A stretch of DNA of 64,000 bases from an uncultured Gammaproteobacteria bacterium (GTDB taxonomy: Bacteria; Patescibacteriota; Microgenomatia; CAZXEC01): contig CAZXEC010000001.1 of the NCBI GenBank assembly GCA_964639595.1, positions 326,903 through 390,902 of the forward strand, in the 5' to 3' direction. Positions 671-64,000 of the stretch are shown here, one piece after another. Under the pieces are notes generated by a model. That model was not told the origin of the DNA. It saw nothing but the letters and a program-made list of their open reading frames with translations, and made no database searches. Within the stretch, counting starts at the first letter, position 1. Every line of letters starts with the position of its first letter. The translations under genes and the position numbers were made by a program.

Positions 671-711
671 ATCTCTTTTAGTTCGTTGCTGCCCAAGTAA
701 AGGTTGAATTT

Positions 712-1671
712 ATGAAATATATTATAGTGGGATTTGGTAATATTGGCCATAAAAGGCAGGCTATTTTAGGCCCTAGGTGTATTGCCACGGTTGACCCGGA
801 TCCCAGGACTAAAGCTGATTTTGCCGATTCATCACAAGTTCCAAGAAGCTTAATAGACGAATGCCGGGCGGTCATAGTGGCAGTGCCCCGCCAGCCTAAA
901 CTAGAACTGGTGGAATATTGGCTGTTGCGCAGCAAGCATGTGCTGGTGGAAAAACCTGTAGTCATTACCAAAACTCAAGCCAAGAGACTACAAAGTATAG
1001 CCAGAAAAAATAAGGTGATCTGGTATACGGCCTACAATCATCGGTTTGAGCCCAATATTGCCAGAATTAAAAAATTATTAGCCAAAAAAACCATTGGTAA
1101 ACTGTATCATGGCCAAATTGCTTATGGTTTTGGCAACGTGAAAGAACTTAAAAAAACCTGGCGGGAAACCGGCTACGGGGTTTTAGATGAAGTCGGTTGT
1201 CATTTGGTTGATTTTGCGCACTGGTTTTATGGGTATAGAGCGGAAGATTTTCGAGGGGAGAGATTTGGCAGTAATGAATTATCAGTCTGGGATTATTGTA
1301 CTTTTGGCACGACAGACGGTAAATTAATTGCAGAAGCCAGTTGGGTAACTTGGAAAAATTCTTTTTCCATAGAGTTTTTTGGCAGCTTGGGATCAATACA
1401 TCTGAGCGGATTGTGCAAATGGGGTACGAGTCGCTTGACTATTAGAACTAGGATTTTCCCCGCCGGAGTGCCCATAGAGAAAATTTTTGTCGAGAAAGGA
1501 CCGGACCAGACTTGGACAAAAGATCTGAAGTATTTTGAAAATCAGGTTAGGCAAAATAAAACAACGTATGATAACGATTTGGTCACCAGCCAAGCTTTAG
1601 TAAATATAGCCAAAAGCCTTGACCAGAAATTAAAAAACGAACAAGTGTATAAGAAACTTAAGGGATTATGA
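712..1671 (+). CDS. Gfo/Idh/MocA-family NAD(P)-dependent oxidoreductase, probably a sugar dehydrogenase
   Basis: N-terminal Rossmann motif IIVGFGNIGHKR and a 319 aa length; ATG start with an upstream AGGT. Confidence 0.65.
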   Translation: MKYIIVGFGNIGHKRQAILGPRCIATVDPDPRTKADFADSSQVPRSLIDECRAVIVAVPRQPKLELVEYWLLRSKHVLVEKPVVITKTQAKRLQSIARKNKVIWYTAYNHRFEPNIARIKKLLAKKTIGKLYHGQIAYGFGNVKELKKTWRETGYGVLDEVGCHLVDFAHWFYGYRAEDFRGERFGSNELSVWDYCTFGTTDGKLIAEASWVTWKNSFSIEFFGSLGSIHLSGLCKWGTSRLTIRTRIFPAGVPIEKIFVEKGPDQTWTKDLKYFENQVRQNKTTYDNDLVTSQALVNIAKSLDQKLKNEQVYKKLKGL

Positions 1672-2978
1672 ACAAAATTTCCAAAATAGCCTTTGTTGGC
1701 CTGTCTCATTTGGGACTGGTCACCTCCATCTGCACAGCATCCAAACATAGTAATGTAATTGGACTAGATACTGATGCTTTGCTGGTATCTTCCCTAAAAA
1801 AAGGAAAGCTTCCCGTGTATGAGCCTGGATTAGATAAATTGTTGGGAAAGGTAGAAAAAAGAATCAGTTTTTCAAATGATTTCTCTCAACTGGCATCATG
1901 TGATGTAGTTTTTTTTGCTCAAGATACGGCCACCGACGGCTCCGGGTCAGTAGATAAATTAAACAGGTTAGTTAGTTTGTCCCTGCCATATTTTAAGCCG
2001 CGCGCGCAACTTATTTTTATCAGTCAAGTGCCGGTGGGATATTACAGGCAACTGGTACGTGATATAAAAAAGAAAAAGCCGAAGTTGAAGTTTTCCCTTT
2101 ATCACTGGATTGATACATTAATTATGACCCAAGCCATAGCCAGCTTCTTGACACCATCCCGCATCATCATTGGCATGGCAGATCCAAAAAAGCCGGTCGA
2201 TGATAAATTAAAAATTATCCTGAATTGGTTTGACTGTCCGGTTTTTTACATGTCCTATGAGAGCGCTGAAGTTACTAAAGCGGCCATCAATCTATATCTG
2301 GCTACCAGTGTCACTTATGCCAACACAGTGGCTGACTATTGCGAAGCAGTGGGTGCCAATATTTATGAAATAATCCCGGCGCTGGCAACTGACAGGCGGA
2401 TAGGCCAATTTGCCTATATCAGGCCGGGTTTGAAAATTGCCGGAGGCCATCTGGAAAGAGATCTGCTCATGCTGTCAAGATTAGCAAAAAAAGCCCAGAT
2501 TAACTCCGGAGTAGTTGATTTTATTATTAAATATGACCGACGCAGATTTGGCTGGCTGAAGAAGCAGTTAAATAATCATTTGCTGTCAAAAACCAAAATG
2601 CCGAAAATCTGCATCTGGGGCTTATCATATAAACCCAACTCGGCATCACAAACTGGAGCGATATCGCAACTGGTAATAAAATACTTAAAAGGAAAAGCTG
2701 GCTTGGCAGTTTATGATCCCCAGGCCAAATTATTGGAAAATATTAATTGGGCTGTTCAATATCGCAACAAATGGCAGGCCCTGAAGAGGGCTGACTGTTT
2801 GATAATACTGACGCCTTGGGATGAATTTAAGACGGTCAAGATATCTAATATTGTCAAAAAAATGAAAGATAAATTAGTTATAGATCCAACAGGTTTATAT
2901 GCGGATCGGGAAAAAGAGTTAGATAAATTGCGCTATTTCTCATTAGGCTTCTCAAACCAGGATTTATCGATCTCATAG
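1668..2978 (+). CDS. Nucleotide-sugar dehydrogenase (UDP-glucose/GDP-mannose 6-dehydrogenase family)
   Basis: N-terminal KIAFVGLSHLGLV NAD-binding motif, a central dimerisation region, and a C-terminal GLSYKPNSASQTGA resembling GLAFKPNTDD. The start overlaps the upstream stop as ATGA. Confidence 0.8.
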   Translation: MNKISKIAFVGLSHLGLVTSICTASKHSNVIGLDTDALLVSSLKKGKLPVYEPGLDKLLGKVEKRISFSNDFSQLASCDVVFFAQDTATDGSGSVDKLNRLVSLSLPYFKPRAQLIFISQVPVGYYRQLVRDIKKKKPKLKFSLYHWIDTLIMTQAIASFLTPSRIIIGMADPKKPVDDKLKIILNWFDCPVFYMSYESAEVTKAAINLYLATSVTYANTVADYCEAVGANIYEIIPALATDRRIGQFAYIRPGLKIAGGHLERDLLMLSRLAKKAQINSGVVDFIIKYDRRRFGWLKKQLNNHLLSKTKMPKICIWGLSYKPNSASQTGAISQLVIKYLKGKAGLAVYDPQAKLLENINWAVQYRNKWQALKRADCLIILTPWDEFKTVKISNIVKKMKDKLVIDPTGLYADREKELDKLRYFSLGFSNQDLSIS

Positions 2979-4588
2979 ACTACGGCGTTATTATCAAAGG
3001 TCTTGATATGTGTGAGGGGCGGCCCCACTTGAGATGGATCAAACATGAACAACAAGTCTTGTTCCTGAATGTCACGATCAACTAACACGTAATCAACCCC
3101 GAATTCCTTAATTTGCCTTACGACCACCTCGTACCCGTAGCCGGAAGTGGTATGAGGAAAATATATTATTTCGCCGTCGGCATACCAGGCGTAGCCTTCT
3201 CTTCTGGTCATGATCTTGGGTCTGTTGATGGTGGTATAGTTTTTGATCCATTCGCCCTGTTCTTTAATTTGAGGGATTGAAGACAGCGATGGTACGCCGG
3301 GTTTTAGATCACCATATATTAAAGCGATGTTATTCTTGGCAATTACAAAAATGATAACTATTATCACCAAAGGCTGCCAGATTATCTTCATGGGTTTTGG
3401 TAAAAACATGCCAGCTACTTGCCAGATGGCATATACTCCCCATCCCTGCAAGATTAAAAGTACTGGCATGAGCCATAATACGTACCTGTCAACTACGCCT
3501 TGGGAGATCATCATCAGAAGAATAAATTGCGGTAGGATGTTGGCCATCAAATAAATAGTAAATTTGTCTTTGATGACAATTAATGAGGCTACTGCTCCGA
3601 TTAGAATAAGGTATATATAAAAACCCTGGAAAAATTGGGAGAGTAACCTCATATTAGCTAAAAATTTATCCCAGGCGCTGGAGATTAAAGCATCCCTACC
3701 TTTCCATAGCTTGGAAGATAGTGAGACTCCGTAAAATTCAGAGTTGAGATTGGGGTGGTCTATTGACCAGGCATCTTGGGCCAGGTTAGAAGACCCATCA
3801 GATGTCACCGTGGTCACATGAGCCGGACCAAAAGCCAGTGCTGCTTTTACTGGTGACAAAACCGGCCGCTCCGCTCTAATTGATAATGTCCCCAAGTATG
3901 GAAGTAAAACAATATTGAAAATAAGGAACATGATCACTAAATTACGAATAACCCGGACCCCTTTTGTTTTTACGATGAAGAGTTGATATATAAAAAAGAG
4001 AACAAGAAAGGTATAAAAAATAGATTGCGTCTCTTGCCTGGTCCAGTAGGTTAAACCAAAGAAAGTTGGCGCCAGCAGCAGATAAAACCACTTTTTGCTT
4101 GTCAGAGCCAAGTATCCCAGAAAAAAAGAGCAATAAAGAAAAAAAACATATTGGTGCTCTGTGAGGGCAACAATAGATGATGTATGAAAAATAGGAAACG
4201 TGGCAATCATTATTGACATGATGAGGCCTATCTTCCAGGATGCGTACCTGGCGAAAAATATGTAGGTGGCGATAGGAAGCAAGAAGCTAAAAATTGCCGG
4301 GACCAGTCTGGCGGCAAATTCCCAATTATTAAAAAAGCTATAGGTAATAGCCATAACTAATGGGTATCCCCCTGGCCAATAGAGATGAACAATTTTGTAA
4401 TACTCGCCTTGCAAAAACCTTTTGGCCATGGTGGCATAGATGGCATCATCGCTGTAGAAAATAAGTTCTTGGGATTTGATAGCTGCTAATTTAATATCAA
4501 AAATCCAGATCGCCATTGCCGCCACAACGACAAATGACAAAAACGGCAGGATATTTTTTCTGATAAATACTTTTCTTAAAAATAACAT
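2933..4588 (-). CDS. GT-C fold membrane glycosyltransferase, ArnT/PMT-like (GT39/GT83-like)
   Basis: More than 10 predicted TM helices. The first extracytoplasmic loop carries YSDDAIY, analogous to the DExxY of ArnT, followed by a W-PGGYPL motif. A ~150 aa soluble C-terminal domain follows. It is a paralog of 28724..30328. Confidence 0.6.
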   Translation of the reverse strand: MLFLRKVFIRKNILPFLSFVVVAAMAIWIFDIKLAAIKSQELIFYSDDAIYATMAKRFLQGEYYKIVHLYWPGGYPLVMAITYSFFNNWEFAARLVPAIFSFLLPIATYIFFARYASWKIGLIMSIMIATFPIFHTSSIVALTEHQYVFFLYCSFFLGYLALTSKKWFYLLLAPTFFGLTYWTRQETQSIFYTFLVLFFIYQLFIVKTKGVRVIRNLVIMFLIFNIVLLPYLGTLSIRAERPVLSPVKAALAFGPAHVTTVTSDGSSNLAQDAWSIDHPNLNSEFYGVSLSSKLWKGRDALISSAWDKFLANMRLLSQFFQGFYIYLILIGAVASLIVIKDKFTIYLMANILPQFILLMMISQGVVDRYVLWLMPVLLILQGWGVYAIWQVAGMFLPKPMKIIWQPLVIIVIIFVIAKNNIALIYGDLKPGVPSLSSIPQIKEQGEWIKNYTTINRPKIMTRREGYAWYADGEIIYFPHTTSGYGYEVVVRQIKEFGVDYVLVDRDIQEQDLLFMFDPSQVGPPLTHIKTFDNNAVVYEIDKSWFEKPNEK

Positions 4589-4594: not shown

Positions 4595-5473
4595 CTATTT
4601 CTTATACAATTTAGGTTTGTAGCCGATCGATACGGTTTGCAGGCTGAAGAATCTCATCAGACTGGAATGGTCAAGCAAGGTTGCAATAAAAACAAGAGGC
4701 CGAACAATCGCATTATCCCAAATAAACCTGTAAATACCGTAGATATTTTTCCATTCCATAAAAAGATCCATATATCTAACCAGACGGGGGAAAATGATCA
4801 TTCCAGTTATTTTAATATTAACAAATCCGGCATTTTCCAACCATTTCTTTTGCTCCCAAGGGAAAAAAGACGGTTCATAACTAGTAACATTTTTCAAAAC
4901 TCTGTTAAAAAGCTCATTAATAAAATATGCCAACCACATATCTAATTTGTTATTAACTCCACTGATAAAAATACCTCCTGGTGTTAAGACCCTGAATGCT
5001 TCTTTCACTGCCTGTTCATTTTCCCTAATATGCTCGATAGTACCATAGCTAAAAACAATATCGAAATAATTGTCCGGAAATGGTAACTGGCGGACATCAC
5101 CTATCAAAAATTTAGCAGTGTCGGTTTTCGATCTAAAGTTCCTTTTGGCTAGTCTGATTACTGCCGGTGAAATGTCTATTCCGTAGTAATCACATCCTTG
5201 TGATAAAAACCAATCTGCCAGTGTAGTTGTACTCATGGCTTCATTGTAAAGATCATATTTTAGGACTTTGAGGCCTGTTTTATGTGGTAGGTAAATTTTA
5301 AGTAACCTTACAATTGATTGGACGAAATATAAATCAGATAGGGTTGGTTTGGTGATGTGTTTATGGGGGCTATTTTTGACAACCTCATCCCATCTTTTGG
5401 CCAGTGTCCTATTAACCTCGTCCCAGTTATTGAAAAAATCTGACTTATTGTAGGTGCCTGTTTTTTTTGTCAT
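4595..5473 (-). CDS. Class I SAM-dependent methyltransferase
   Basis: Motif I is DYYGIDISPAVIRLAK, and the later LTPGGIFIS matches the Methyltransf_11/25 pattern. Confidence 0.7.
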   Translation of the reverse strand: MTKKTGTYNKSDFFNNWDEVNRTLAKRWDEVVKNSPHKHITKPTLSDLYFVQSIVRLLKIYLPHKTGLKVLKYDLYNEAMSTTTLADWFLSQGCDYYGIDISPAVIRLAKRNFRSKTDTAKFLIGDVRQLPFPDNYFDIVFSYGTIEHIRENEQAVKEAFRVLTPGGIFISGVNNKLDMWLAYFINELFNRVLKNVTSYEPSFFPWEQKKWLENAGFVNIKITGMIIFPRLVRYMDLFMEWKNIYGIYRFIWDNAIVRPLVFIATLLDHSSLMRFFSLQTVSIGYKPKLYKK

Positions 5474-5480
5474 GAGGGTA

Positions 5481-6791
5481 TTATAGTAAGAGCTTGTTCA
5501 GCAGATCGTTTGGTGTTTCGGCTTGCCTGATGATTTTTATTTGTTGATTGGAGCTGACGAAAACCACAACTGGTCTAAGAATTGTAAACTGGTTTGAACG
5601 TGTTAGAGAATAAGCCCCGGCATCTAAAACTAAAACTATATCTCCCACTGCCATTTCGGGTAATTTCTGATCTGTTGCCAAAACATCGGCAGTATTGAGT
5701 GTGGGCCCGGCGATGTTGTAGCGACGGGTAGGTTTTCGATGGGCTTTATTGGCAATAATAAATCCCCGCCTAATAAAAAATATACTCTCTGGTACCAAAT
5801 TAATTCCACCATCTATAAAAATCCAATCCTTTTTGACAGCCACTACTCGAGTTACCAAGATGCCAGTATCAGAAACTAAAAATCTTCCCGGTTCCAACAC
5901 TAACTCTATTTCAGGTAGGTGATAATTATTGAGCATTTCCCTGAATTTAGTTCCGATTTTTTTACCAAATTCTTCAATCGACGGGGCTTTACTGTATTGA
6001 GATATTCCAGCCTTGTTCAAGATGATATTTTGCAGTGAATAATAATTAAGGCTCTGTAATCCGTATCCGCCGCCGATATTGATAGTTTTAATACTAAGTC
6101 CTAACTGGTCTCTAAGTCTGGCTGCTAAGGTAACTAATCTTTCGATGGACTTTTGGTAGTAGGATGGATCGGTAATCATTGAGCCAATATGGCTGGAGAT
6201 AGCCATCGGTTGCACATGAGAATAGGAAAGAGCCTTGCTATAAGCATCAACCGCTTGGGAAATGGGAATTCCGAATTTACTGATATAACCCTCGATAAAG
6301 CTTTTTAATATTGACATTTTTAACTCTGGATAAATTCTAAAGCTGATGTTGACCTTAATGTCTAATTTTTGGGCAATTTTGGCAACTCTTGCCAAAAGAT
6401 CTAAAGAGTCCACATTAAAAACTGCAACTCCTTTTTTAATGCAGAAGGCAATTTCCTGATCGTTCCAAGCCGGGCCATCAATAATCAATTCAGAAGCATC
6501 AAAGCCTGCTTTTTGAGCAAGGAGTACCTCTAGTGCCGAAGCTATTTCTCCTCTGCTGCCTTGGGATCTGAGAGTCTTGAGTATTTGAGGTTCAAAATTA
6601 GTTTTTACCGAATAGTAGATGCTAGTTTTTCTGTAATATTTTTGGAAAGCGGCAGATAGTGCGTGGTAATTATCAATTAATCTTTTTTCGCTAAACAAAA
6701 AAAATGGAGTACCGAATTTCTTGATCAGCTTGTCTAGCGGAACGCCATCGAATTTAACCTTATCCTGCACCAAATTAACACCGCTGATCAT
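5481..6791 (-). CDS. Fold-type III PLP-dependent decarboxylase (Orn/DAP/Arg decarboxylase family), substrate unknown
   Basis: N-terminal TPFFLFSEKRL resembles TPLYVYD. The PLP-lysine motif YYSVKTN, the Gly-rich NIGGGYG and the C-terminal LEPGRFLV are all present. Confidence 0.75.
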   Translation of the reverse strand: MISGVNLVQDKVKFDGVPLDKLIKKFGTPFFLFSEKRLIDNYHALSAAFQKYYRKTSIYYSVKTNFEPQILKTLRSQGSRGEIASALEVLLAQKAGFDASELIIDGPAWNDQEIAFCIKKGVAVFNVDSLDLLARVAKIAQKLDIKVNISFRIYPELKMSILKSFIEGYISKFGIPISQAVDAYSKALSYSHVQPMAISSHIGSMITDPSYYQKSIERLVTLAARLRDQLGLSIKTINIGGGYGLQSLNYYSLQNIILNKAGISQYSKAPSIEEFGKKIGTKFREMLNNYHLPEIELVLEPGRFLVSDTGILVTRVVAVKKDWIFIDGGINLVPESIFFIRRGFIIANKAHRKPTRRYNIAGPTLNTADVLATDQKLPEMAVGDIVLVLDAGAYSLTRSNQFTILRPVVVFVSSNQQIKIIRQAETPNDLLNKLLL

Positions 6792-6805
6792 AGAATGGTA
6801 TTATA

Positions 6806-7795: not shown

Positions 7796-7875
7796 AGAAA
7801 GGATCGGATAAACAGACGGTAGCATAGACAACTGTCACAAGCAAGTCAATCTGTTGTAAAATGTCTTAAAATAAG

Positions 7876-10778: not shown

Positions 10779-10806
10779 TAATTTACAAGAAGAGCAGGTC
10801 AATACA

Positions 10807-14785: not shown

Positions 14786-14818
14786 ACAAACGGCATTCTA
14801 ACATTATAGGTTTTGCAT

Positions 14819-14845: not shown

Positions 14846-14856
14846 TCATCCGTAGG

Positions 14857-15910
<1,054 letters not shown>

Positions 15911-15912
15911 AC

Positions 15913-48046: not shown

Positions 48047-48062
48047 TAAGTTCGTTTTCCAG

Positions 48063-51607: not shown

Positions 51608-51770
51608 ACTAGCCAATTTTTGCCTACTGGTCAGTTTCACATTATTGCTGGTGGCTTTTGCATCTATTCTTGGCAACCATCCAGGATTTGCTAATCAGGT
51701 AGTTGAGAAAAGCTATCTAGTTTTATTAAGTGCTATTGTGTTGAAGTTTGCATTAAATTTTTTGTTATGA
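51597..51770 (+). CDS. Unlisted small two-helix hydrophobic ORF (~57 aa), translationally coupled on both sides
   Basis: The ATG overlaps the TAG of the upstream gene (ATGCTAAATAG). The product MLNRLANFCLLVSFTLLLVAFASILG...YLVLLSAIVLKFALNFLL ends in a TGA that overlaps the B3 start (TTATGA). It falls below the ORF-track length cutoff. Coordinates are approximate (±3). Confidence 0.3.
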   Translation: MLNRLANFCLLVSFTLLLVAFASILGNHPGFANQVVEKSYLVLLSAIVLKFALNFLL

Positions 51771-55696: not shown

Positions 55697-55697
55697 T

Positions 55698-57322: not shown

Positions 57323-58710
57323 TCGTTATCCCCCTGTTGGCTTTAATTGTTGCACATCTGTTCATCTTGGTCAACGTAAAATTTACGGCTTGGCCGGAGA
57401 TGTTGGCCTATCCTTATTTGATGTCTCACGGATTTCTGCCGTACCGTGATATAGTGTTCCCGTATTTCCCGCTACTGCCAAATCTGTTGACCATCGTCTA
57501 TAACTCTTTTGGCCAAAGCGTTAGTGTTTTGCAGTTTACTACCTGGATAACAATTTTAACTGTCGACCTGCTGGTTTTTTATCTGACTTTTTTGGTGTTT
57601 GGGAAAAAATATCTAGCCCTTTTGGGTATGGCAATGTTTATTTTGTGGCAGCCATATTTTGACGGCAATGCGATGTGGTTTGATTTGGCTTTGGCCCCTT
57701 TGGTTTTAGGTGGTGCTATTTTACAACTGCAATTTAACAATAAAAAACAGTTAGTATTTTTGTTGCTGTCAGGAATTTGTTGGGGATTGGCAGTAGCTGT
57801 TAAACAACAAGCCATAGTGTTTTTGCTGGCGGCCGTGTTGTTTTTGCTAACAGACACTGATAAAAAAATGCGTAGTTTACTATTATTGATGGCAGGTTTT
57901 GCTCTGCCGCTTTTATTAACTTTAGCGCCTTTGTTTAGTGCAAGCATCCTAGATGAATTCTGGAACTGGGCAGTGGTTGTGCCAATTTTTGTCATGTCGC
58001 GCATAGCGGGATATGCCAATCTTCCTGACGTGGAGCAGGTGGCCACTTTAGCAATGGTGCTGATGCCGGTCTGGTTATTGCTAGCCAGAATTGTTGATTT
58101 TGCCAAAACTAATCGTGCTATTTTTTTATTATTGTTGCTATTTTTGGCCAGCCTGACTAATTCGTTGCCAAGATTCTCTTTGCTCCGTTTTCAAACAATA
58201 CTAGTGTTGGCCATCCCTTTGTTTATTTGGTGGATTGATAGCCATTATGCCCGTCATAAAAAAATAGTAGTTGGGCTACTGATTGCGGCATTGGGAATAA
58301 GTCTTTGGTCGCAGCAGTGGTTTTATCGCTTCAACTGGGGCCAGTCGATTAGATTCTTTGAAGAAGAAACCTTAGTCGGGTCACAATACTTATCAAGTCA
58401 TACTAATCAGCAAGACAAAATTTATCTTTTTAATGTTTCATCCGTCTGGTATGTATTATCGAATCGTCTTCCCATCAAGCCATGGGTAGATAATTTTCCG
58501 TGGTATTTCGAAGTACCAGGTATGCAGGACCAGGTCATCGCCAGCTTTACCAGCCAACTGCCCAAAGTTGTTTTATATAAATATCCTGCTGCCGGTAATC
58601 CATATCAGCCAGGTACGTACCAACCGGACAAGCTGATCAAATATCTCGTTGAACATTATATCCAGCAGCAAGAAATAGCCCCAGGAGTTTGGTGGTGGGA
58701 GAGAAAATGA
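57319..58710 (+). CDS. Polytopic membrane protein, GT-C-like (DUF2029/GT87-like)
   Basis: About 12 TM helices. The early loop reads GFLPYRDIVFPYFPL, which resembles the conserved PYRDF..YPP loop of the GT87/DUF2029 family. Confidence 0.45.
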   Translation: MIVIPLLALIVAHLFILVNVKFTAWPEMLAYPYLMSHGFLPYRDIVFPYFPLLPNLLTIVYNSFGQSVSVLQFTTWITILTVDLLVFYLTFLVFGKKYLALLGMAMFILWQPYFDGNAMWFDLALAPLVLGGAILQLQFNNKKQLVFLLLSGICWGLAVAVKQQAIVFLLAAVLFLLTDTDKKMRSLLLLMAGFALPLLLTLAPLFSASILDEFWNWAVVVPIFVMSRIAGYANLPDVEQVATLAMVLMPVWLLLARIVDFAKTNRAIFLLLLLFLASLTNSLPRFSLLRFQTILVLAIPLFIWWIDSHYARHKKIVVGLLIAALGISLWSQQWFYRFNWGQSIRFFEEETLVGSQYLSSHTNQQDKIYLFNVSSVWYVLSNRLPIKPWVDNFPWYFEVPGMQDQVIASFTSQLPKVVLYKYPAAGNPYQPGTYQPDKLIKYLVEHYIQQQEIAPGVWWWERK

Positions 58711-58729: not shown

Positions 58730-59740
58730 ATGAAAATCGCATTTTTAAATATTAGCCAGAGTCTTGTTCAAAGAGGCGCTGAAACATTCGTCCGTGAATT
58801 ATCAACGAGGCTGGCTCAAGACCACCAAGTAACTGTTGTCAGTGGTCACAAAATTCCACCGGGCAGATGGCCTATTATATGGAGATTTTTCATTGATGGG
58901 CATGGATTGTATATTTTATGGTTCACTTTATCTAAAATTCCACTGTTATGGAAGGAAAAATTTGATGTTGTTGTTCCTCTCAATGGCGGCTGGCAATCGC
59001 TGTTGGTGCGCGTCCTTACCCTGCTTTATGGCGGCAAGATGATTATATCAGGACAGTCTGGGAAAGGTTGGGATGATAGAGTTAATTTGTGGTTTTTTCC
59101 AAGTCGCTTCGTGGCCTTGTCTTCTTCTTTGTCTAAATGGGCCAAAAGGATAAATCCATTTACTGAAGTTTCTTATATACCCAACGGCGTTGATCTTGTT
59201 CGTTTTACTCCTGAAGGGGCAAAGGCCAAAGTTAGCCTCAATGGCCCAATTTTCTTGTGCGTTGGCGCACTTACCCATGAAAAAAGAATTGATTTGGCAA
59301 TTCGCGCAGTTTATAAACTTGCCAAGGGCAGTTTATTGGTAATAGGCCAGGGGAAAGATGAGAAGCAGCTGTCTTTATTAGGACAGCAACTTTTAGGGAA
59401 TAGGTTTAAGATTGTTAGCGCTGATTTTGAACAAATGCCTAACTGGTACAGGGCCGCTCACATTTTCACCTTGCCGTCGCCCTCATATAGAGCATTTGAA
59501 ATAGTTCTAGTTGAGGCGATGGCCTGTAATTTACCGGTGGTGGTCAATGATGACCCAATCCGTCGAGAAATTGTCCAGGAAGCTGGTTTATTTGTTAATC
59601 CTGATAAAATAGAGGCATATGCCAAGGCTTTGGACCAGGCTCTGGCAAGAAGTTGGTATAATAAACCCAGGATACAGGCAGAAAAATTCTCTTGGGATAA
59701 AATTACCCAGCAATATCTACAACTTTTTCAAGACCAATGA
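58730..59740 (+). CDS. Glycosyltransferase family 4 (GT-B fold)
   Basis: ...FEIVLVEAMACNLPVVVND... EX7E-type region. Confidence 0.7.
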   Translation: MKIAFLNISQSLVQRGAETFVRELSTRLAQDHQVTVVSGHKIPPGRWPIIWRFFIDGHGLYILWFTLSKIPLLWKEKFDVVVPLNGGWQSLLVRVLTLLYGGKMIISGQSGKGWDDRVNLWFFPSRFVALSSSLSKWAKRINPFTEVSYIPNGVDLVRFTPEGAKAKVSLNGPIFLCVGALTHEKRIDLAIRAVYKLAKGSLLVIGQGKDEKQLSLLGQQLLGNRFKIVSADFEQMPNWYRAAHIFTLPSPSYRAFEIVLVEAMACNLPVVVNDDPIRREIVQEAGLFVNPDKIEAYAKALDQALARSWYNKPRIQAEKFSWDKITQQYLQLFQDQ

Positions 59741-61179
59741 GACGGCAGATCTTTTTTCTGGGGGGCCTTATTACCAGCTTCTTGTTAGTTTGGCCAACTT
59801 TAAGCTCATATTTTGCTCAGGATGATTTTTTCCATTTTAGACTTGCCCAAGAACATTCACTGCTATCATTATTCCAGTTACCCGAAGGCTATTGGTTTTA
59901 TAGACCAATCGCTAGGGAACTTTATAATTGGCTGACCTTTAATTTATTTGGGTTAACACCGCTACCATATCATTTATTAATCTATGCTTTATATTTATTG
60001 AACGCGGGATTAGCCGCTCTTATTATTAAGTATATAACAAAAAAAACCCAAACAGCAGGCCTGATGTTTTTGCTGATTACATCATCCGGAGTTATCAATG
60101 TAGATTCTTATTACTTGGCATCTAATGAAATTTTAATGTCGTCAATCTTCATGTTGACCGCATTATATTTTTATTTAAGGTTCACTGACAAAAAAACTTG
60201 GAAATTGTATGCCGCTGGTTTAGTTTTTTATTTAGCAGCCCTGTTTTGTCAAGAAGTGGCGCTGGTCTTCCCCTTGATTTTATTAGCCATAGAGCTTTAT
60301 GCTACCAAACCGCTTGATTTCAGGGCTTTAGCATGCAGGCTTTCCCCGTTTGCTATCCTGGCTGCTTTTTTGGTGATAATTGATGTTTGGGTGATAGGTC
60401 TGCCGCCGGATCAGCAGTACCGGACTGTTTTTACTCCCAAAACTTTTCTCAATTCAATTTTTTGGTACAGTTTGTGGGGGATGGGCATATCGGAAATATT
60501 GGTCGATTTTGTCAAAGATTTCAAATTTTCCCCAGATTTTTTGATCTGGTATGCTAATTATTTAAAAATTGCCATGGGGATGCTTGTTATATTTATGGCA
60601 ATTCTAGTTAGCCTTTTTTTGCATGATATTAAAAAATTACCGTATAGACTGATGATATTGTTGATGGCTCTCTATGTGATATCGCTTTTACCATTTTTAC
60701 TTTTACCAGATCATAAGCAAAGTTACTATTTATCATTTGGGCAGATTTGGCTTTACGGACTTTTTGCGATTATTTTTAGTCAAGCTTTAGCCAGTCCGCG
60801 CATGCGAGTAACAATCGTGATTGGACTTGCTGCTTTTTTCTTGACTAACTTTGCCACTAGTCGCCTAAACGATAAAACTTATTGGGCTGCCAAAAGAGCT
60901 AAAGCTGCTCAAGCTTTATTGGAAAATATCCAAAAGCAGTATCCACAAGTTGCGGCCAGTTCAACTTTTTATTTCATCAGCAATAAGTCTTACCCGGATT
61001 TTGCACAATCTTGGGGGAGTTCTTCACAGCAAGCTGCATTGATTCTATCAGGAGCAGATGCCTTAAAAGTTGTCTATAATGACAGGTCCATCTCGGCCTT
61101 GTTCGATAATGCTGGTAGCTTACCAAGAAGCATCGACCATGATAAAGTATTAACAGTAGAGGCCGTTTTCCCTTACTAA
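59737..61179 (+). CDS. GT-C-like membrane glycosyltransferase related to the A1-A3 N-terminal domain, without the discoidin domain
   Basis: YFAQDDFFHF...YRPIAREL...GLTPLPYHLL parallels YFWKDDSALMF...YRHILEPF...GLEPTGYF in A1. About 11 TM helices. Confidence 0.5.
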   Translation: MRRQIFFLGGLITSFLLVWPTLSSYFAQDDFFHFRLAQEHSLLSLFQLPEGYWFYRPIARELYNWLTFNLFGLTPLPYHLLIYALYLLNAGLAALIIKYITKKTQTAGLMFLLITSSGVINVDSYYLASNEILMSSIFMLTALYFYLRFTDKKTWKLYAAGLVFYLAALFCQEVALVFPLILLAIELYATKPLDFRALACRLSPFAILAAFLVIIDVWVIGLPPDQQYRTVFTPKTFLNSIFWYSLWGMGISEILVDFVKDFKFSPDFLIWYANYLKIAMGMLVIFMAILVSLFLHDIKKLPYRLMILLMALYVISLLPFLLLPDHKQSYYLSFGQIWLYGLFAIIFSQALASPRMRVTIVIGLAAFFLTNFATSRLNDKTYWAAKRAKAAQALLENIQKQYPQVAASSTFYFISNKSYPDFAQSWGSSSQQAALILSGADALKVVYNDRSISALFDNAGSLPRSIDHDKVLTVEAVFPY

Positions 61180-61180: not shown

Positions 61181-62023
61181 ATGACTGTATCGGTGATAAT
61201 CCCCGCGTTTAATGAGCAGGATACGATTGTCAGATGCCTGTTCAGCTTAAAAGATCAGACTTTTCCACCCTTGGAAATTATTGTGGTGGATGATGGATCA
61301 AATGATGATACTTTCTCTCAAATGCAGAAACTTAAAGACAGCCTGGTCTACTTAAAAATACTGCAGCAGGCACATCAAGGTCCTGCCAAAGCCCGCAATT
61401 TGGCAGCCAGTTATGCCCAGGGGGATATTCTGGTATTTGTTGATGCCGACATGGAGTTTGACCGGCATTTTTTAGAAATGCTGACCAGCCCAATTATAAA
61501 TGGCACGAGCCAGGGGACTTGGACGAAGGAAGAAAAAGTGGCCAACTGGGATAATCTTTGGGCCAGAATGTGGAATTTAAATGAGGGCTGGCCAGAAAAA
61601 AGCAGGATTGCCGTTAATGCGTCAGACAAGGGGACTGACTTTCGGGCAATTGTCAAAAGTGAATTTGACAGAGTCGGCGGCTTTGATGATATCGGCTACA
61701 CAGATGTTTACACCTTAGCTAGAAAGCTGGGCTATCAGCCGCAAGCAGCTCCAGGTGCTATCTGCTATCACTATAATCCAGACAGCCTGACAGAGGTTTG
61801 GGTACAAGCCAGATGGATTGGAAAAAACGAATTTATTTCCGGTAATTTTATCAGGCGGATTTGGTCTCTTTGGCGTTATGGGATAGTCAACTCTTTGCTG
61901 GTGGCATTTACAAAATCAATTATTACTATTCAGCCGGCTTTTGTGCCTTTTAAATTAACCTATGATTTAGGCATCTGGTGTTCTGTAGTTTTGTCATTTT
62001 GGGGGGAGCCGAAAATAAAATGA
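61181..62023 (+). CDS. Glycosyltransferase family 2
   Basis: VSVIIPAFNEQDTI..IIVVDDGSNDDT, and DADMEF (DXD). Confidence 0.75.
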   Translation: MTVSVIIPAFNEQDTIVRCLFSLKDQTFPPLEIIVVDDGSNDDTFSQMQKLKDSLVYLKILQQAHQGPAKARNLAASYAQGDILVFVDADMEFDRHFLEMLTSPIINGTSQGTWTKEEKVANWDNLWARMWNLNEGWPEKSRIAVNASDKGTDFRAIVKSEFDRVGGFDDIGYTDVYTLARKLGYQPQAAPGAICYHYNPDSLTEVWVQARWIGKNEFISGNFIRRIWSLWRYGIVNSLLVAFTKSIITIQPAFVPFKLTYDLGIWCSVVLSFWGEPKIK

Positions 62024-63444
62024 TTGCTCAAATAAAAACACATTGGCTGATTCTGTCAGTGTTGGCACTGGCTGTGGTATTGAGGCTCATCAACATTAAC
62101 CAGTCTGTCTGGTTGGACGAAGCAATTAATATCATGGCTGTTAAAAATTATGATGTGGGATTTTTGATCACGGATTATAGCATAGGAGATCTGCATCCGC
62201 CTCTATATCATCTCTTACTCAAAAACTGGACACAAATTTTTGGATATTCAGAAATTGCCGTCAGGTTGTTATCAGTAGTTTTCGGTACCATATCAGTTTT
62301 TTTGATATATAGTTTAGGGCAGCTGATCTTTGATAAAAAAACAGCGCTGATTTCGGCGTTTCTCTTGGCTATCTCTGGTCTGCATATTTATTATTCCCAA
62401 GAAGCCAGGATGTATGCTTTGGCTGCCATGCTGGTGCTTTTTTCCATGACCGGATTTGTGCAAATTTTGGGCCGGTTTTCTGACAAACTATTTGCCTGGG
62501 TATTTTATATTGTTTCCACTGTTTTGGTGCTGTATGCTGATTATCTGCCGTATTTCCTGTTTGCAACGTATAATCTTTATGTCGTTTTTAACAAAGCCAG
62601 TTTAGGCAAGAAATGGTTGCTGGCTTGGTGTTTGAGTCAAGCAGTCATCGTCCTATCCCTATTGCCCTGGCTGTCTGTTTTTGTTAAACAACTCTCCACT
62701 GGTTTACAAGCAGCACAAAATGTACCGGAATGGGGTCAGGTAGTAGGTGCAGCATCACTAAAAGCGCTGGCTTTGGTACCGCTTAAATTTATTATTGGTC
62801 GAGTCACAATCGACGATAAAATTATCTATACTATTTTGGCAGCCTCCGTAATTCTAGTGTGCAGTTTTATATCTATCAGAACTCTTCGAGATTGGCCCAA
62901 AACTAAATTATTATGGTATTGGTTGGTAATTCCAGCACTTTTGGCGTATTTGGTAGCTTTTTGGATTCCTATTTTTACCTATTTCAGATTCTTATTTGTA
63001 TTGCCGGCGTTTATCTTGCTTATTTCCAAGGGGATATCAATGTTTCCCCAAAAAGCCCAAACAATATTAACAGTAACAACAACTGCCATTTTTTTTGTAT
63101 CATCATTGTTTTATTTAGCGACCCCCAGATTTTGGAGGGAAAATTGGCGGGACGCTGTATCTTATGTTAAAGGCGCTCAAGTTGACAGGAGCGCGGTGGT
63201 TTTCGTCACCGATTACCAAACTGCCCCCTATCAATATTATGGGGCGCCGGTTACTTATTATGGACCAGTCGGCTGGCAAAATCGTGACTTCGACCAGATT
63301 TTCCTGATGCGCTATGTCCAGCCCATATTTGATCCCCAGGATAAATTAAGGCAAAATATAGAAAAGGCTGACTATTCTAAAGTCGAAGAAGTTGATTTTA
63401 ACGGAGTGACGATCTGGCGCTATGTTAAAGTCAGAAAATTATGA
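62020..63444 (+). CDS. GT-C membrane glycosyltransferase, ArnT/GT39-like
   Basis: WLDEAINIMA (DE loop) and DLHPPLYHLL; more than 10 TM helices. The start is set at the ATG overlapping the upstream stop. Confidence 0.65.
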   Translation: MIAQIKTHWLILSVLALAVVLRLININQSVWLDEAINIMAVKNYDVGFLITDYSIGDLHPPLYHLLLKNWTQIFGYSEIAVRLLSVVFGTISVFLIYSLGQLIFDKKTALISAFLLAISGLHIYYSQEARMYALAAMLVLFSMTGFVQILGRFSDKLFAWVFYIVSTVLVLYADYLPYFLFATYNLYVVFNKASLGKKWLLAWCLSQAVIVLSLLPWLSVFVKQLSTGLQAAQNVPEWGQVVGAASLKALALVPLKFIIGRVTIDDKIIYTILAASVILVCSFISIRTLRDWPKTKLLWYWLVIPALLAYLVAFWIPIFTYFRFLFVLPAFILLISKGISMFPQKAQTILTVTTTAIFFVSSLFYLATPRFWRENWRDAVSYVKGAQVDRSAVVFVTDYQTAPYQYYGAPVTYYGPVGWQNRDFDQIFLMRYVQPIFDPQDKLRQNIEKADYSKVEEVDFNGVTIWRYVKVRKL

Positions 63445-64000
63445 AGATAGGTATTGATGTATCACAAATAATTTATGGTACCGGTGTATCGAACTACACT
63501 AAAAATCTGGTCACATCACTGATTGCTCAAGATGATGCTAACCAATACGTGCTGTTTGGCTCTTCATTGAGACAATTCGGGCAGTTTTCCAAATTAATTC
63601 CCTCTAAAACTAACATTACTGCCAAATTCTACCCTTTTCCACCCAGAGTCTTGGATTTGATTTGGAATCAATTGCATATTATCCCTGTTGAAAACCTGAT
63701 TGGGCCAGTTGATATTTTTCATTCATCTGACTGGACTCAACCTCCCACCAAGAGAGCTGGCAAAATTACCACCATCCACGACTTGTCACCACTGGTGGTA
63801 CCGGAGCTGACACCACCATCGACACTTAAGACGCACAGAAGAAGGCTGCAGTGGGTCAAAAAAGAAGCAGATTTGGTGATTGCTGTATCGGAGGCTACCA
63901 AGAGTGATATTGTCAAATATTTATCAATTCCTCCAGAGAGAATTAGAGTCATCCATGAAGCTCCTGACCCGGTATTTAGTCCTGTTGGCAACACCCAGGT
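63441..64000 (+). CDS. Glycosyltransferase family 4 N-terminal domain, 3'-truncated at the window edge
   Basis: Open frame from the ATG at 63441 (ATGA overlap with the upstream stop) to the end of the window: MKIGIDVSQIIYGTGVSNYTKNL... It is absent from the ORF track because it has no stop. Confidence 0.6.
   Translation, partial: MKIGIDVSQIIYGTGVSNYTKNLVTSLIAQDDANQYVLFGSSLRQFGQFSKLIPSKTNITAKFYPFPPRVLDLIWNQLHIIPVENLIGPVDIFHSSDWTQPPTKRAGKITTIHDLSPLVVPELTPPSTLKTHRRRLQWVKKEADLVIAVSEATKSDIVKYLSIPPERIRVIHEAPDPVFSPVGNTQ

What the first reader, a model, noticed from the sequence alone, without database searches (positions are those of the whole stretch)
700..64000. 63-kb glycan-assembly island built around about 13 extracytoplasmic GT-C glycosyltransferases plus lipid-phosphate-sugar synthases
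Nearly every gene after the transaldolase concerns sugar activation, transfer or decoration. Four GT-C types occur together: ArnT/PMT-like (x5), discoidin-fused (x3, plus one short relative), YfhO/AftD-like (x3) and DUF2029-like. Alongside them sit a GtrB/ArnC-type and a DPM1-type GT2, which make polyprenyl-P-sugar donors, and a Wzx flippase. That combination is the logic of mycobacterial LAM/arabinogalactan assembly, teichoic-acid glycosylation by YfhO, and protein O-mannosylation by PMT with Ppm1. Here it is concentrated in one locus of a low-GC, compact genome. This suggests an undescribed lipid-carrier-dependent surface lipoglycan or protein-glycosylation machine.
Basis: partly seen in the sequence, partly recalled or inferred. 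Interest (0 to 1): 0.85.

Follow-up and report, generated by a model that had tools for sequence, protein, structure and literature searches.

The report
GT-C-rich glycan-assembly island in a CPR bacterium
A tiny-genome, uncultured bacterium of the Microgenomates group packs 13 membrane enzymes that add sugars outside the cell, plus the enzymes that make their lipid-linked sugar donors, into one 63-kb locus, which predicts an undescribed, heavily decorated surface glycan.

Summary
Of 47 genes in the window, 13 are multi-pass GT-C-type glycosyltransferases, which make up 45% of the DNA.

- **PMT_2/ArnT-like:** six proteins.
- **GT-C fused to a discoidin (CBM32) domain:** three proteins, plus one short relative without the CBM.
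- **AftD-like:** three proteins.

Relatives are all Microgenomates (CPR/Patescibacteria). The right third (48–64 kb) is a colinear core shared at about 30–45% identity with Blackburnbacteria and a second MAG, and partly with a Woesebacteria-like contig. GT2 plus discoidin-GT-C pairs look like add-on cassettes.

The most likely function is inferred, not shown. Cytoplasmic GT2/GT4 enzymes build a lipid-linked glycan and Wzx flips it. GT-Cs then extend and decorate it outside the membrane from polyprenyl-P-sugars. [quoted passage not shown] The product and the acceptor are unknown.

The parts
712..2978 (+). Nucleotide-sugar oxidoreductase pair: a Gfo/Idh/MocA oxidoreductase (712-1671) and an NDP-sugar 6-dehydrogenase (1668-2978).
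   Evidence: Pfam GFO_IDH_MocA and UDPG_MGDP_dh N, central and C domains. NCBIfam TIGR03026 at 229 bits, above its cut-off of 189.8.
2933..4588 (-). GT-C, PMT_2-like, 551 aa, about 9 TM helices. 'FYSDDAIY' motif after TM1.
   Evidence: PMT_2 at 21.6 bits, below the 26.1 cut-off. Paralogue of 28724-30328 at 3e-33. TM helices; motif.
4595..7831 (-). SAM methyltransferase (4595-5473), LysA-like PLP decarboxylase (5481-6791) and an SDR epimerase/dehydratase (6806-7831).
   Evidence: Pfam. NCBIfam lysA at 277.5 bits against a cut-off of 297.9.
7876..12996 (+). Two paralogous PMT/PMT_2-type GT-Cs (7876-10029, 717 aa; 10807-12996, 729 aa; 35% identical) flanking a methyltransferase (10029-10778). 'HPDEP' and 'HQDEP' motifs after TM1. 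Each has a C-terminal part of about 270 aa with no Pfam match.
   Evidence: PMT_2 at 55.9 and 53.3 bits; PMT at 51.5 and 37.7 bits; weak STT3 at 22.4 bits. Paralogy. Motifs.
13003..28303 (.). Cytoplasmic sugar-nucleotide and glycan-building block.
- GT2 (13003)
- Unknown 314-aa ORF (13841-14785, - strand)
- Fcl-like SDR (14894)
- GT4 (15913)
- Methyltransferase (17022)
- NodU-type carbamoyltransferase (17834)
- GT2 (19626)
- GT4 (20632)
- PglF/PseB-like 4,6-dehydratase (21801)
- Two DegT aminotransferases (23225, 24307)
- TM-anchored AlgX/SGNH-like protein (25425)
- Second carbamoyltransferase (26597-28303, - strand)
   Evidence: Pfam. NCBIfam.
28724..30328 (-). GT-C, PMT/PMT_2-like, 534 aa, about 10 TM helices. 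'LFSDDAVY' motif after TM1.
   Evidence: PMT at 39.9 bits and PMT_2 at 30.9 bits. TM helices and motif.
30380..31303 (+). GT2 of the polyprenyl-phosphate-sugar synthase type (GtrB/ArnC/AglJ-like), 307 aa, with two C-terminal TM helices.
   Evidence: NCBIfam AglJ at 119 bits, then Dol-P-hexose transferase, PpgS and ArnC. Best PDB matches are DPMS 5MLZ (7e-12) and ArnC. TM helices at about 221 and 271.
31305..34861 (+). Donor-sugar module: methyltransferase (31305), soluble DPM1/ArnC-like GT2 (31971-32678, 235 aa), GNAT acetyltransferase (32681) and two methyltransferases (33219, 34016).
   Evidence: Pfam. For 31971-32678, best PDB matches are DPMS 5MLZ (8e-33), ArnC (7e-17) and GtrB (3e-13). 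The order GT2-GNAT-methyltransferase-discoidin GT-C is conserved in L006 at 58-74% identity.
34865..40455 (+). Two tandem GT-Cs, each with a C-terminal discoidin/CBM32 domain (34865-37600, 911 aa; 37597-40455, 952 aa). Invariant 'MYFWxDD' motif after TM1.
40463..42233 (-). GT2 (40463-41569) and a decayed methyltransferase (41569-42233).
   Evidence: Pfam. tblastn against the intact 267-aa orthologue in L011 shows a 45-aa deletion that removes the SAM-binding motif, plus a frameshift.
42301..44988 (+). Third discoidin/CBM32-fused GT-C, 895 aa, 44% identical to 34865-37600.
   Evidence: Pfam. Paralogy.
45077..51267 (+). Two AftD-like GT-Cs (45077-48046, 989 aa; 48124-51267, 1047 aa). Each has an N-terminal TM bundle, a large extracytoplasmic domain and a single C-terminal TM helix.
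   Evidence: PF11847 GT-C_AftD at 34.9 bits for 48124-51267. Paralogy at 1e-31. TM layout. hhalign to the A2 family at 98%.
51248..51770 (+). Two small membrane ORFs (119 aa and 57 aa). The first is conserved in position, directly downstream of the large AftD-like gene, in all related loci.
   Evidence: ORFs. Equivalents of 105-121 aa in L005 and L007-L010. No Pfam family.
51767..54439 (+). AftD-like GT-C of a Microgenomates-specific family with no Pfam model, 890 aa. Invariant 'GD' (D34) after TM1. CBM6/35-like beta-sandwich domains and a C-terminal TM helix.
54443..57322 (+). Wzx-type MOP flippase (54443-55696, about 10 TM helices), GT2 (55698-56501) and methyltransferase (56498-57322).
   Evidence: Polysacc_synt at 60.6 bits and Polysacc_synt_3 at 40.4 bits. 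Pfam.
57319..58710 (+). GT-C, PMT_2/ArnT-like, 463 aa, about 9 TM helices.
   Evidence: Own PMT_2 hit is only 19.8 bits. 17 of 23 homologues carry PF13231.
58730..59740 (+). GT4 glycosyltransferase.
   Evidence: Glycos_transf_1 at 85 bits.
59737..61179 (+). GT-C made of the membrane domain of the discoidin-fused family, without the CBM, 480 aa. 'YFAQDD' motif.
   Evidence: hhalign against A1: 96.8%, E 2.2e-10, with the motif aligned.
61181..64000 (+). GT2 (61181-62023), PMT_2 GT-C (61978-63444, 488 aa, 'VWLDEA' motif) and the start of a GT4 (63441 to the end of the window).
   Evidence: Pfam.

Best explanation
The window is the main envelope-glycan locus of a Microgenomates (CPR/Patescibacteria) bacterium. 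It most likely works as an expanded multi-component transmembrane glycosylation system.

**Proposed mechanism (all steps inferred)**
1. Cytoplasmic enzymes tailor nucleotide sugars. These are a 6-dehydrogenase, a PglF/PseB-like 4,6-dehydratase, two DegT aminotransferases, a GNAT and SDR epimerases.
2. GT2 and GT4 enzymes build a polyprenyl-linked oligosaccharide. It is methylated and carbamoylated, and the Wzx protein flips it across the membrane.
3. In parallel, two DPM1/ArnC/GtrB-type GT2s load single, partly modified amino sugars onto polyprenyl phosphate.
4. Outside the membrane, 13 GT-C enzymes use these lipid-phosphate sugars to extend, branch and decorate the glycan. The CBM32 and CBM6/35-like domains fused to seven of them hold the growing chain, as the CBMs of AftD and EmbC are thought to do.

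**Organisation of the locus**
- A conserved core lies at 48.1-64 kb, in the order: AftD-like, small TM protein, AftD-like, Wzx, GT2, methyltransferase, PMT_2, GT4, GT2, PMT_2, GT4.
- Variable add-on modules surround it, notably pairs of a GT2 donor synthase with a discoidin-GT-C.

**Shown:** the folds and families of the proteins, their gene order and their conservation across relatives.

**Inferred:** the donors, the acceptor, which side of the membrane the enzymes act on, and the order of the steps.
For: **GT-C identity of all 13 proteins**
- Pfam PMT_2, PMT and GT-C_AftD hits.
- Family-level PMT_2 for 57319-58710.
- Profile links between families.
- Acidic motif after TM1.

**Donor synthases**
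- 30380-31303 and 31971-32678 match DPMS and ArnC best among solved structures; 31971 also matches GtrB. NCBIfam gives AglJ, ArnC and PpgS.

**Flippase**
- Polysacc_synt.

**A glycan acceptor is suggested by fused CBMs**
- CBM6/35-like domains.
- 53 of 56 sampled family representatives keep the discoidin domain.

**Recurrent pairing of a donor-synthase GT2 with a discoidin-GT-C**
- L004, L006 and L010.
- In L006 the order DegT, ArnC-like GT2, GNAT, methyltransferase, discoidin GT-C matches the window at 58-74% identity. This mirrors the Arn logic: make an amino sugar, N-acylate it, load it on the lipid, transfer it with a GT-C.

**Conserved core**
- Colinear in a Blackburnbacteria genome (L008) and in GCA_034680565.1 (L010), and partly in a Woesebacteria-like contig (L009), at 24-49% identity.

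**Precedent**
- The published scheme of GT-A plus a GtrA- or Wzx-type flippase plus GT-C. It includes a variant with a soluble GT-A, a small membrane protein and Wzx (GacI/J/K/L). Source: PMC8035078.
Against: - No initiating phosphoglycosyltransferase (Bac_transf or MraY/WecA type), no LCP ligase and no GtrA-type flippase lies in the window. The start and the end point of the pathway are therefore missing.
- Only two donor synthases are recognisable for 13 GT-Cs.
- Several assignments rest on weak scores: 2933-4588 at 21.6 bits and 57319-58710 at 19.8 bits.
- The membrane orientation of the catalytic loops and CBMs is inferred from the GT-C fold. It was not computed.
- Nothing identifies the sugars or the acceptor.
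- Some PMT-like enzymes could act on proteins rather than on a polymer.
Confidence: 0.6

Rival explanations
1. The locus mainly glycosylates proteins such as S-layer proteins, pilins or other surface proteins. The PMT-like and STT3-like GT-Cs would transfer sugars or oligosaccharides from lipid carriers onto Ser/Thr or Asn residues, as in actinobacterial Pmt/Ppm1 or in archaeal AglB systems.
For: - Six GT-Cs fall in PMT/PMT_2.
- 10807-12996 has a weak STT3 hit (22.4 bits).
- The discoidin-family membrane domain is closest in fold to Pmt4, Pmt2 and STT3B.
- 30380-31303 is closest to the AglJ model of archaeal S-layer N-glycosylation (119 bits).
Against: - Scores against curated protein-glycosylation models are far below their cut-offs: PrMnsylTfPmt 28 against 800, archaeo_STT3 19 against 450, AglJ 119 against 325.
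- No MIR domain was found in any of them.
- Carbohydrate-binding modules are fused to seven GT-Cs, which points to glycan acceptors.
- No candidate substrate protein is encoded in the window.
- PMT_2 is a broad family that also holds ArnT-type lipid and glycan transferases.
Confidence: 0.2
2. It is an ordinary Wzx/Wzy-type capsule or O-antigen-like locus. One of the multi-pass proteins would be the polymerase, and most of the 'GT-C' calls would be over-interpreted membrane proteins.
For: - Wzx is present, with GT2 and GT4 genes around it.
- Sugar-nucleotide genes typical of O-antigen clusters are present.
- Two GT-C calls are below Pfam's cut-off.
Against: - The Pfam scans of all ORFs of 150 aa or more gave no Wzy, O-antigen ligase, Wzz or initiating transferase hit.
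- The two families without a Pfam membrane-domain model have confident models that match solved GT-Cs, not Wzy or transporters.
- The homologues of 57319-58710 carry PMT_2.
Confidence: 0.08
3. It is a patchwork of unrelated, horizontally acquired glycosylation cassettes that lie together by chance or through genome reduction, with no common product.
For: - The left two-thirds of the window are not conserved in the more distant relatives.
- GT2 plus discoidin-GT-C pairs occur in different positions and orientations, for example inside the core in L010.
- One methyltransferase is decaying.
Against: - GC content is uniform, with no compositional break.
- The window from about 24 kb to 63.4 kb is colinear in the relative at about 75% identity.
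- The core order is kept across candidate phyla.
- Genes are tightly packed and mostly co-directional, with overlapping stop and start codons.
Confidence: 0.12

Closest known systems
Multi-component (three-component) transmembrane glycosylation systems: GtrA/GtrB/Gtr(type), CsbB-GtcA-YfhO, GacI/J/K/L (review PMC8035078)
   Same: - A GT-A/GT2 enzyme makes a polyprenyl-P-sugar, a flippase moves it, and a multi-pass GT-C transfers the sugar to a glycopolymer outside the membrane.
- GT2 and GT-C genes are adjacent.
- As in the Gac variant, there is a Wzx-type flippase, a soluble GT2 and small membrane proteins.
   Different: - Known systems are two to four genes that add one side-chain sugar to a polymer made elsewhere. 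Here 13 GT-Cs of three sequence families sit in one locus.
- No GtrA-type protein is present.
- Seven of the GT-Cs carry carbohydrate-binding modules.
- Two of the GT-C families have no Pfam model for their membrane domain.
Mycobacterial and corynebacterial arabinogalactan/LAM assembly (AftA-D, EmbA-C, Mpt enzymes with decaprenyl-P-arabinose or polyprenyl-P-mannose donors; AftD structure 6W98)
   Same: - Many GT-Cs build a polymer outside the membrane from lipid-phosphate monosaccharides, on a lipid-linked primer made in the cytoplasm.
   Different: - Sequence identity to AftD is only 11-15%.
- The proteins are 890-1047 aa against about 1400 aa, with one C-terminal TM helix in place of AftD's C-terminal helix bundle (from my own knowledge of AftD).
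- No genes for decaprenyl-P-arabinose synthesis were seen.
- The host is a CPR bacterium, not an actinobacterium.
- The genes are concentrated in 63 kb rather than spread over a 4-Mb genome.
Arn pathway (ArnB aminotransferase, ArnA, ArnC, ArnE/F, ArnT)
   Same: The module of DegT aminotransferases, an N-acyltransferase (GNAT), an ArnC-like GT2 and downstream GT-Cs follows the same order of chemistry: amino sugar, N-acylation, loading on polyprenyl-P, then transfer by a GT-C.
   Different: - All scores are well below the equivalog cut-offs: ArnB 260 against 631 and ArnC 75 against 529.
- There is a 4,6-dehydratase (PglF/PseB-like) rather than ArnA chemistry, so the sugar is probably a 4-amino-4,6-dideoxyhexose derivative.
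- There is no ArnE/F, no deformylase and no lipid A in this type of organism (the last point from my own knowledge).
- The GT-C is a CBM32 fusion.
Protein O-mannosyltransferases (PMT, GT39) with Ppm1/DPM1
   Same: - Several proteins hit Pfam PMT and PMT_2.
- A DPM1-like GT2 is present.
   Different: - No MIR domain.
- NCBIfam Pmt model at 28 bits against a cut-off of 800.
- CBM32 fusion.
- No evidence for a protein acceptor.
Wzx/Wzy-dependent O-antigen or capsule loci
   Same: Wzx flippase, GT2 and GT4 genes, nucleotide-sugar modification genes, methyl and acyl decoration.
   Different: No Wzy, Wzz, WaaL or initiating transferase was detected. The locus is dominated by GT-C enzymes.

Membership tests
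GT-C glycosyltransferase superfamily (fold class) | N-terminal bundle of about 8-13 TM helices | tested here: met
   Hydropathy gives 6-10 TM helices in all 13 candidates. The AlphaFold models show helical bundles at residues 44-460 and 3-393.
GT-C glycosyltransferase superfamily (fold class) | Conserved acidic residue or residues in the first extracytoplasmic loop, directly after TM1 | tested here: met
   DD, DE, DxD or GD within about 5-15 residues after TM1 in 12 of 13 proteins; ambiguous (PE) in 57319-58710. D79 and D80 are invariant in A1 and D34 is invariant in A2.
GT-C glycosyltransferase superfamily (fold class) | Structural similarity to solved GT-C enzymes | tested here: met
   [not shown]
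GT-C glycosyltransferase superfamily (fold class) | Uses a polyprenyl-phosphate or polyprenyl-diphosphate-linked sugar donor at the outer face of the membrane | not testable with these tools
   Inferred from the fold and from the neighbouring DPMS/ArnC-like GT2 genes.
Protein O-mannosyltransferase (PMT, GT39) | Match to curated Pmt models, and a MIR domain in the large luminal loop | tested here: not met
   NCBIfam PrMnsylTfPmt at 28 bits against a cut-off of 800. No MIR domain in any Pfam scan. Pfam PMT hits cover only the N-terminal third.
AftD family (Pfam PF11847 GT-C_AftD / DUF3367) | Pfam GT-C_AftD hit above the gathering score | tested here: met
   48124-51267 scores 34.9 bits against a cut-off of 26. 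45077-48046 and 51767-54439 do not reach it themselves. They are linked by BLASTP (1e-31), by hhalign (98%) and by fold.
AftD family (Pfam PF11847 GT-C_AftD / DUF3367) | Full AftD architecture: about 1400 aa, several CBMs, a C-terminal multi-helix TM domain and a bound acyl carrier protein | tested here: not met
   Lengths are 890-1047 aa with a single C-terminal TM helix. ACP binding is not testable here.
YfhO family (Pfam PF09586) | Pfam YfhO hit | tested here: not met
   No YfhO hit for 45077-48046 or 51767-54439 even at E up to 5. None for 48124-51267 at E up to 1e-3.
DUF2029 / GT87-type GT-C | Pfam DUF2029 hit for 57319-58710 | tested here: not met
   The only weak hit is PMT_2 (19.8 bits). 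17 of 23 homologues are PF13231 PMT_2.
Multi-component transmembrane glycosylation system (GT-A + flippase + GT-C) | A polyprenyl-P-sugar-forming GT2 next to a GT-C | tested here: met
   30380-31303 and 31971-32678 match DPMS and ArnC, and 31971 also GtrB. They lie between GT-C 28724-30328 and GT-Cs 34865-40455. The same pairing occurs in L004, L006 and L010.
Multi-component transmembrane glycosylation system (GT-A + flippase + GT-C) | A GtrA-type or Wzx-type flippase | tested here: met
   Wzx-type 54443-55696. No GtrA-type protein was found among the small ORFs.
Wzx/Wzy-dependent polysaccharide locus | Wzy polymerase, Wzz/PCP chain-length regulator and an initiating phosphoglycosyltransferase | tested here: not met
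   None of these families was hit in the Pfam scans of all ORFs of 150 aa or more. 21801-23228 shares only the CoA-binding-like domain with WbaP-type transferases. They could lie elsewhere in the genome.
Arn (L-Ara4N) pathway | Orthologues of ArnB, ArnA, ArnC and ArnT at equivalog level | tested here: not met
   ArnB model at 260 and 247 bits against a cut-off of 631; ArnC model at 75 and 40 bits against 529. No ArnA formyltransferase domain.

The most novel reading that the evidence does not exclude
The conserved core at 48-64 kb (AftD-like GT-C, small TM protein, AftD-like GT-C, Wzx, GT2, methyltransferase, PMT_2, GT4, GT2, PMT_2, GT4) could make a lineage-defining envelope glycopolymer of Microgenomates. 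That polymer would be assembled largely outside the membrane by GT-C families that have no Pfam model and no characterised member. It would be a functional counterpart of teichoic acids or arabinogalactan in these ultra-small, probably episymbiotic bacteria. The discoidin-GT-C cassettes would diversify its surface, possibly for host attachment or phage evasion.
Probability: 0.35. Interest if true: 0.8.

Novelty: new variant of a known kind. Interest (0 to 1): 0.62.

Why it matters
- **Scale of investment.** CPR bacteria have genomes of about 1 Mb and lack many biosynthetic pathways (established knowledge, not tested here). This organism nevertheless gives at least 63 kb, 45% of it GT-C enzymes, to extracytoplasmic glycan assembly. 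Part of that machinery is conserved across candidate phyla of Microgenomates.
- **Unknown envelope chemistry.** As far as I know, almost nothing is known about the envelope chemistry of these uncultured cells. The surface is where they would meet hosts and phages.
- **Testable targets.** The locus offers two GT-C families without Pfam membrane-domain models: a CBM32 fusion with at least 237 clusters at 50% identity, and an AftD-like family with at least 197 clusters at 90% identity. It also offers a conserved operon-like core and a predicted methylated, carbamoylated, amino-sugar-containing glycan that could be looked for in enrichments.
- **Wider distribution of the mechanism.** It extends the AftD/Emb-type way of building polymers outside the membrane well beyond Actinobacteria.

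Tried and rejected
1. **PDB sequence searches.** The large proteins and two PMT-like proteins gave nothing for the membrane domains. Only fold comparison worked.
2. **Relaxed Pfam scan (E up to 5).** The unassigned proteins gave no YfhO, DUF2029, Wzy, O-antigen ligase or transporter hits. This rejects the 'DUF2029-like' and 'YfhO' labels and the Wzy idea.
3. **Link between the discoidin family and the PMT-like proteins.** hhalign of the discoidin family against PMT-like 7876-10029 found no sequence link (probability 0.5%). The relation shows only in the fold, and in 8 of 56 family members that reach PMT_2.
4. **Search for a GtrA-type flippase among small ORFs.** None was found. One small ORF is DUF5989, which lies next to the carbamoyltransferase.
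5. **Exact-sequence look-ups for the source genome.**
   - The cluster table gave no names or accessions.
   - The NCBI contig of 458 kb could not be fetched.
   - Taxonomy therefore rests on relatives.
6. **AFDB fold library.** It was not available.
7. **Literature searches.** Five searches for CPR/Patescibacteria GT-C or PMT/ArnT-type glycosylation, or for discoidin-fused GT-Cs, found nothing relevant.
8. **Family size.** The first homology search suggested that the discoidin-GT-C family had only 21 members. The exhaustive profile search corrected this to at least 237 clusters at E up to 1e-30, so the rarity claim was dropped.

Full report
**1. What is in the window**

The 64-kb window has about 40% GC with no compositional break, and no tRNA genes. 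It is 98.6% coding, with 37 genes on the + strand and 9 on the - strand, many with overlapping stop and start codons. After a truncated transaldolase (68-670), Pfam and NCBIfam assign nearly every gene to sugar activation, transfer or decoration.

Genes other than the GT-Cs:

| Class | Count | Notes |
|---|---|---|
| Polyprenyl-P-sugar-synthase-type GT2 | 2 | 30380-31303, 31971-32678 |
| Other GT2 | 5 | |
| GT4 | 4 | one cut by the window end |
| SAM methyltransferases | 7 intact, 1 decayed | |
| NodU-type carbamoyltransferases | 2 | |
| DegT aminotransferases | 2 | |
| PglF/PseB-like 4,6-dehydratase | 1 | |
| Other SDR enzymes | 2 | |
| NDP-sugar 6-dehydrogenase | 1 | |
| Gfo/Idh/MocA oxidoreductase | 1 | |
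| GNAT acetyltransferase | 1 | |
| AlgX/SGNH-like protein | 1 | membrane-anchored |
| LysA-like decarboxylase | 1 | |
| Wzx-type flippase | 1 | 54443-55696 |

**2. The GT-C count**

Thirteen proteins (9,646 aa, 45% of the DNA) are GT-C candidates. They fall into three sequence groups.

*(a) PMT_2/PMT-like, six proteins*
- 7876-10029, 10807-12996, 28724-30328(-) and 61978-63444 pass Pfam's cut-offs.
- 2933-4588(-) is below the cut-off (21.6 bits) but is a paralogue of 28724-30328 (3e-33).
- 57319-58710 scores only 19.8 bits, yet 17 of its 23 database homologues carry PF13231.

*(b) Discoidin-fused, three proteins plus a short relative*
- 34865-37600, 37597-40455 and 42301-44988 carry F5_F8_type_C (42-46 bits). 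Pfam has no model for their membrane domain.
- The 480-aa protein 59737-61179 is this membrane domain without the CBM (hhalign 96.8%, E 2e-10). Its 'YFAQDD' aligns to the family's invariant 'MYFWxDD'.

*(c) AftD-like, three proteins*
- 48124-51267 passes Pfam GT-C_AftD (34.9 bits against 26). 45077-48046 is its paralogue (1e-31).
- 51767-54439 has no Pfam hit, but its family profile matches both of the others (98%).
- No YfhO hit was found at any threshold.

Twelve of the 13 carry an acidic motif directly after the first TM helix, the hallmark of GT-C catalytic loops. The PE in 57319-58710 is ambiguous.

**3. Donor synthases and flippase**

- 30380-31303 (two C-terminal TM helices) and 31971-32678 (soluble) both match Pyrococcus Dol-P-Man synthase and ArnC best among solved structures; 31971 also matches GtrB. 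Among NCBIfam models they match AglJ, ArnC and PpgS, all below the equivalog cut-offs.
- 54443-55696 is a Wzx-type MOP protein.
- I found no GtrA-type protein, Wzy, Wzz, O-antigen ligase, LCP ligase or initiating phosphoglycosyltransferase.

**4. Where it comes from**

Exact copies of the window's proteins occur in environmental assemblies and on a 458-kb NCBI contig that I could not retrieve.

- Relatives of the discoidin-GT-C family in species-representative genomes are Candidatus Daviesbacteria and Candidatus Woesebacteria. A third is a MAG titled 'Gammaproteobacteria' that shares 58-74% identical neighbours with the window and is probably mislabelled.
- Named homologues of 51767-54439 are Blackburnbacteria, Woesebacteria, 'Microgenomates group' and 'Patescibacteria group'.
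- NCBI taxonomy places Daviesbacteria in the Microgenomates group of Patescibacteria.

The window is therefore from a Microgenomates (CPR) bacterium.

**5. Comparative anatomy**

- **Close relative.** One with about 75% protein identity (one 100-kb contig, loci L007 and L011) is colinear with the window from about 24 kb to 63.4 kb.
- **Distant relatives.** Here only the right third is conserved. The order is: AftD-like (about 1050-1160 aa), small membrane protein of 105-121 aa, the 51767-type GT-C, Wzx, GT2, methyltransferase, PMT_2-like (about 460 aa), GT4, GT2, PMT_2 (about 470 aa), GT4.
  - This order recurs in a Blackburnbacteria genome (L008) and in GCA_034680565.1 (L010).
  - It recurs with rearrangements in a Woesebacteria-like contig (L009).
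  - Identities are 24-49%.
- **Discoidin-GT-Cs look like add-ons.**
  - In L004 and L010 a 250-256-aa GT2 related to 30380-31303 sits directly upstream of a discoidin-GT-C. In L010 this pair is inserted into the core on the other strand.
  - In L006 the order DegT, ArnC-like GT2, GNAT, methyltransferase and two discoidin-GT-Cs matches the window's 24.3-40.5 kb genes.

**6. Size of the new families**

The word-indexed search found only 21 discoidin-GT-C relatives. That figure was misleading.

- An exhaustive profile search with the membrane domain found 237 cluster representatives at E up to 1e-30 and 688 at E up to 1e-10.
- Of 56 sampled representatives, 53 keep the discoidin domain and 8 reach PMT_2.
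- The 51767-type family has at least 197 clusters at 90% identity. Only one of the 120 listed carries any Pfam domain, PF10131.

**7. Mechanism (inference)**

The anatomy fits the published scheme of multi-component transmembrane glycosylation: GT-A plus a GtrA- or Wzx-type flippase plus GT-C. The scheme includes a variant with a soluble GT-A, a small membrane protein and Wzx (PMC8035078). Here it is expanded to the scale of mycobacterial arabinan assembly.

1. Cytoplasmic GT2 and GT4 enzymes build a lipid-linked oligosaccharide, which Wzx flips.
2. The two donor synthases load monosaccharides onto polyprenyl phosphate. One donor is probably an N-acetylated, possibly methylated 4-amino-4,6-dideoxyhexose, made by the dehydratase, the DegT enzymes and the GNAT.
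3. The GT-Cs extend and decorate the chain outside the membrane, using their CBMs to hold the glycan.
4. Methylation, carbamoylation and probably O-acetylation (the AlgX-like protein) add further decoration.

The missing initiating transferase and ligase, and the shortfall of two recognisable donor synthases for 13 GT-Cs, are the main gaps. A share of the PMT-like enzymes could glycosylate proteins instead. That rival is weakened by scores far below the curated Pmt, AglB and AglJ cut-offs, by the absence of MIR domains, and by the CBM fusions.

**8. Verdict**

The thing itself is a new variant of a known kind. The logic is known, but several features are not described in the literature I could search:
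- the density of 13 GT-Cs in 63 kb;
- the two GT-C families without Pfam membrane-domain models;
- the CBM32 fusion;
- the CPR host;
- the core conserved across candidate phyla.

The product, the acceptor and the biological role remain unknown.

Noticed in passing
window 41569-42233 (-): The methyltransferase next to GT2 40463-41569 is a pseudogene. Compared with the intact 267-aa orthologue in the ~75%-identity relative (L011 16589-17392), it has lost 45 residues, including the SAM-binding 'VLEIGCGAGYG' motif. It also has a frameshift near residue 132.
   Followed up: yes
window 51248-51607 and 51597-51770 (+); L005 16837-17196, L007 9483-9842, L008 6912-7277, L009 9666-10004, L010 12666-13022: A small hydrophobic, probably multi-TM protein (105-121 aa) always follows the large AftD-like gene. 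Its position is conserved although its sequence is barely conserved (E 7e-4 at best outside the close relative). It has no Pfam family. It could be a partner subunit (GacJ-like) or a small flippase. A second ORF of 55-57 aa follows it in the window, in L007 and in L008.
   Followed up: partly
window 5481-6791 (-): A LysA-like PLP decarboxylase (277.5 bits, just under the lysA cut-off of 297.9) sits inside the glycan island, between a methyltransferase and an SDR epimerase. It could be housekeeping lysine synthesis, or it could make an amine decoration.
   Followed up: no
window 28300-28682 (-): Two small membrane ORFs lie directly downstream of the second carbamoyltransferase. One is 52 aa and is DUF5989 (63 bits). 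The other is 108 aa and has no family. They probably form a conserved carbamoyltransferase accessory pair.
   Followed up: partly
window 13841-14785 (-): A 314-aa soluble ORF on the minority strand has no Pfam or NCBIfam match, even at relaxed thresholds.
   Followed up: partly
L006 (CAYTZB010000001.1, 186,660 bp): The record is titled 'uncultured Gammaproteobacteria bacterium'. It nevertheless carries DegT, GT2, GNAT and methyltransferase genes that are 58-74% identical to this Microgenomates-type window, plus two discoidin-GT-Cs. The taxonomic label is probably wrong.
   Followed up: partly
L010 9249-12688 (GCA_034680565.1, JAXOUH010013490.1): A GT2 (30380-like) plus discoidin-GT-C pair is inserted, on the opposite strand, between the 51767-type GT-C and the small-TM/AftD-like genes of the conserved core. 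This suggests that the pair moves as a cassette.
   Followed up: partly
window 21801-23228 (+): The PglF/PseB-like 4,6-dehydratase has the N-terminal CoA_binding_3 domain that it shares with WbaP-type transferases, but no TM helices. It is a soluble version of what is usually a membrane-anchored enzyme.
   Followed up: no
window 7876-10029 and 10807-12996 (+): Both PMT-like paralogues carry C-terminal parts of about 270 aa with no Pfam match and no PDB sequence match. These may be acceptor-binding domains.
   Followed up: no
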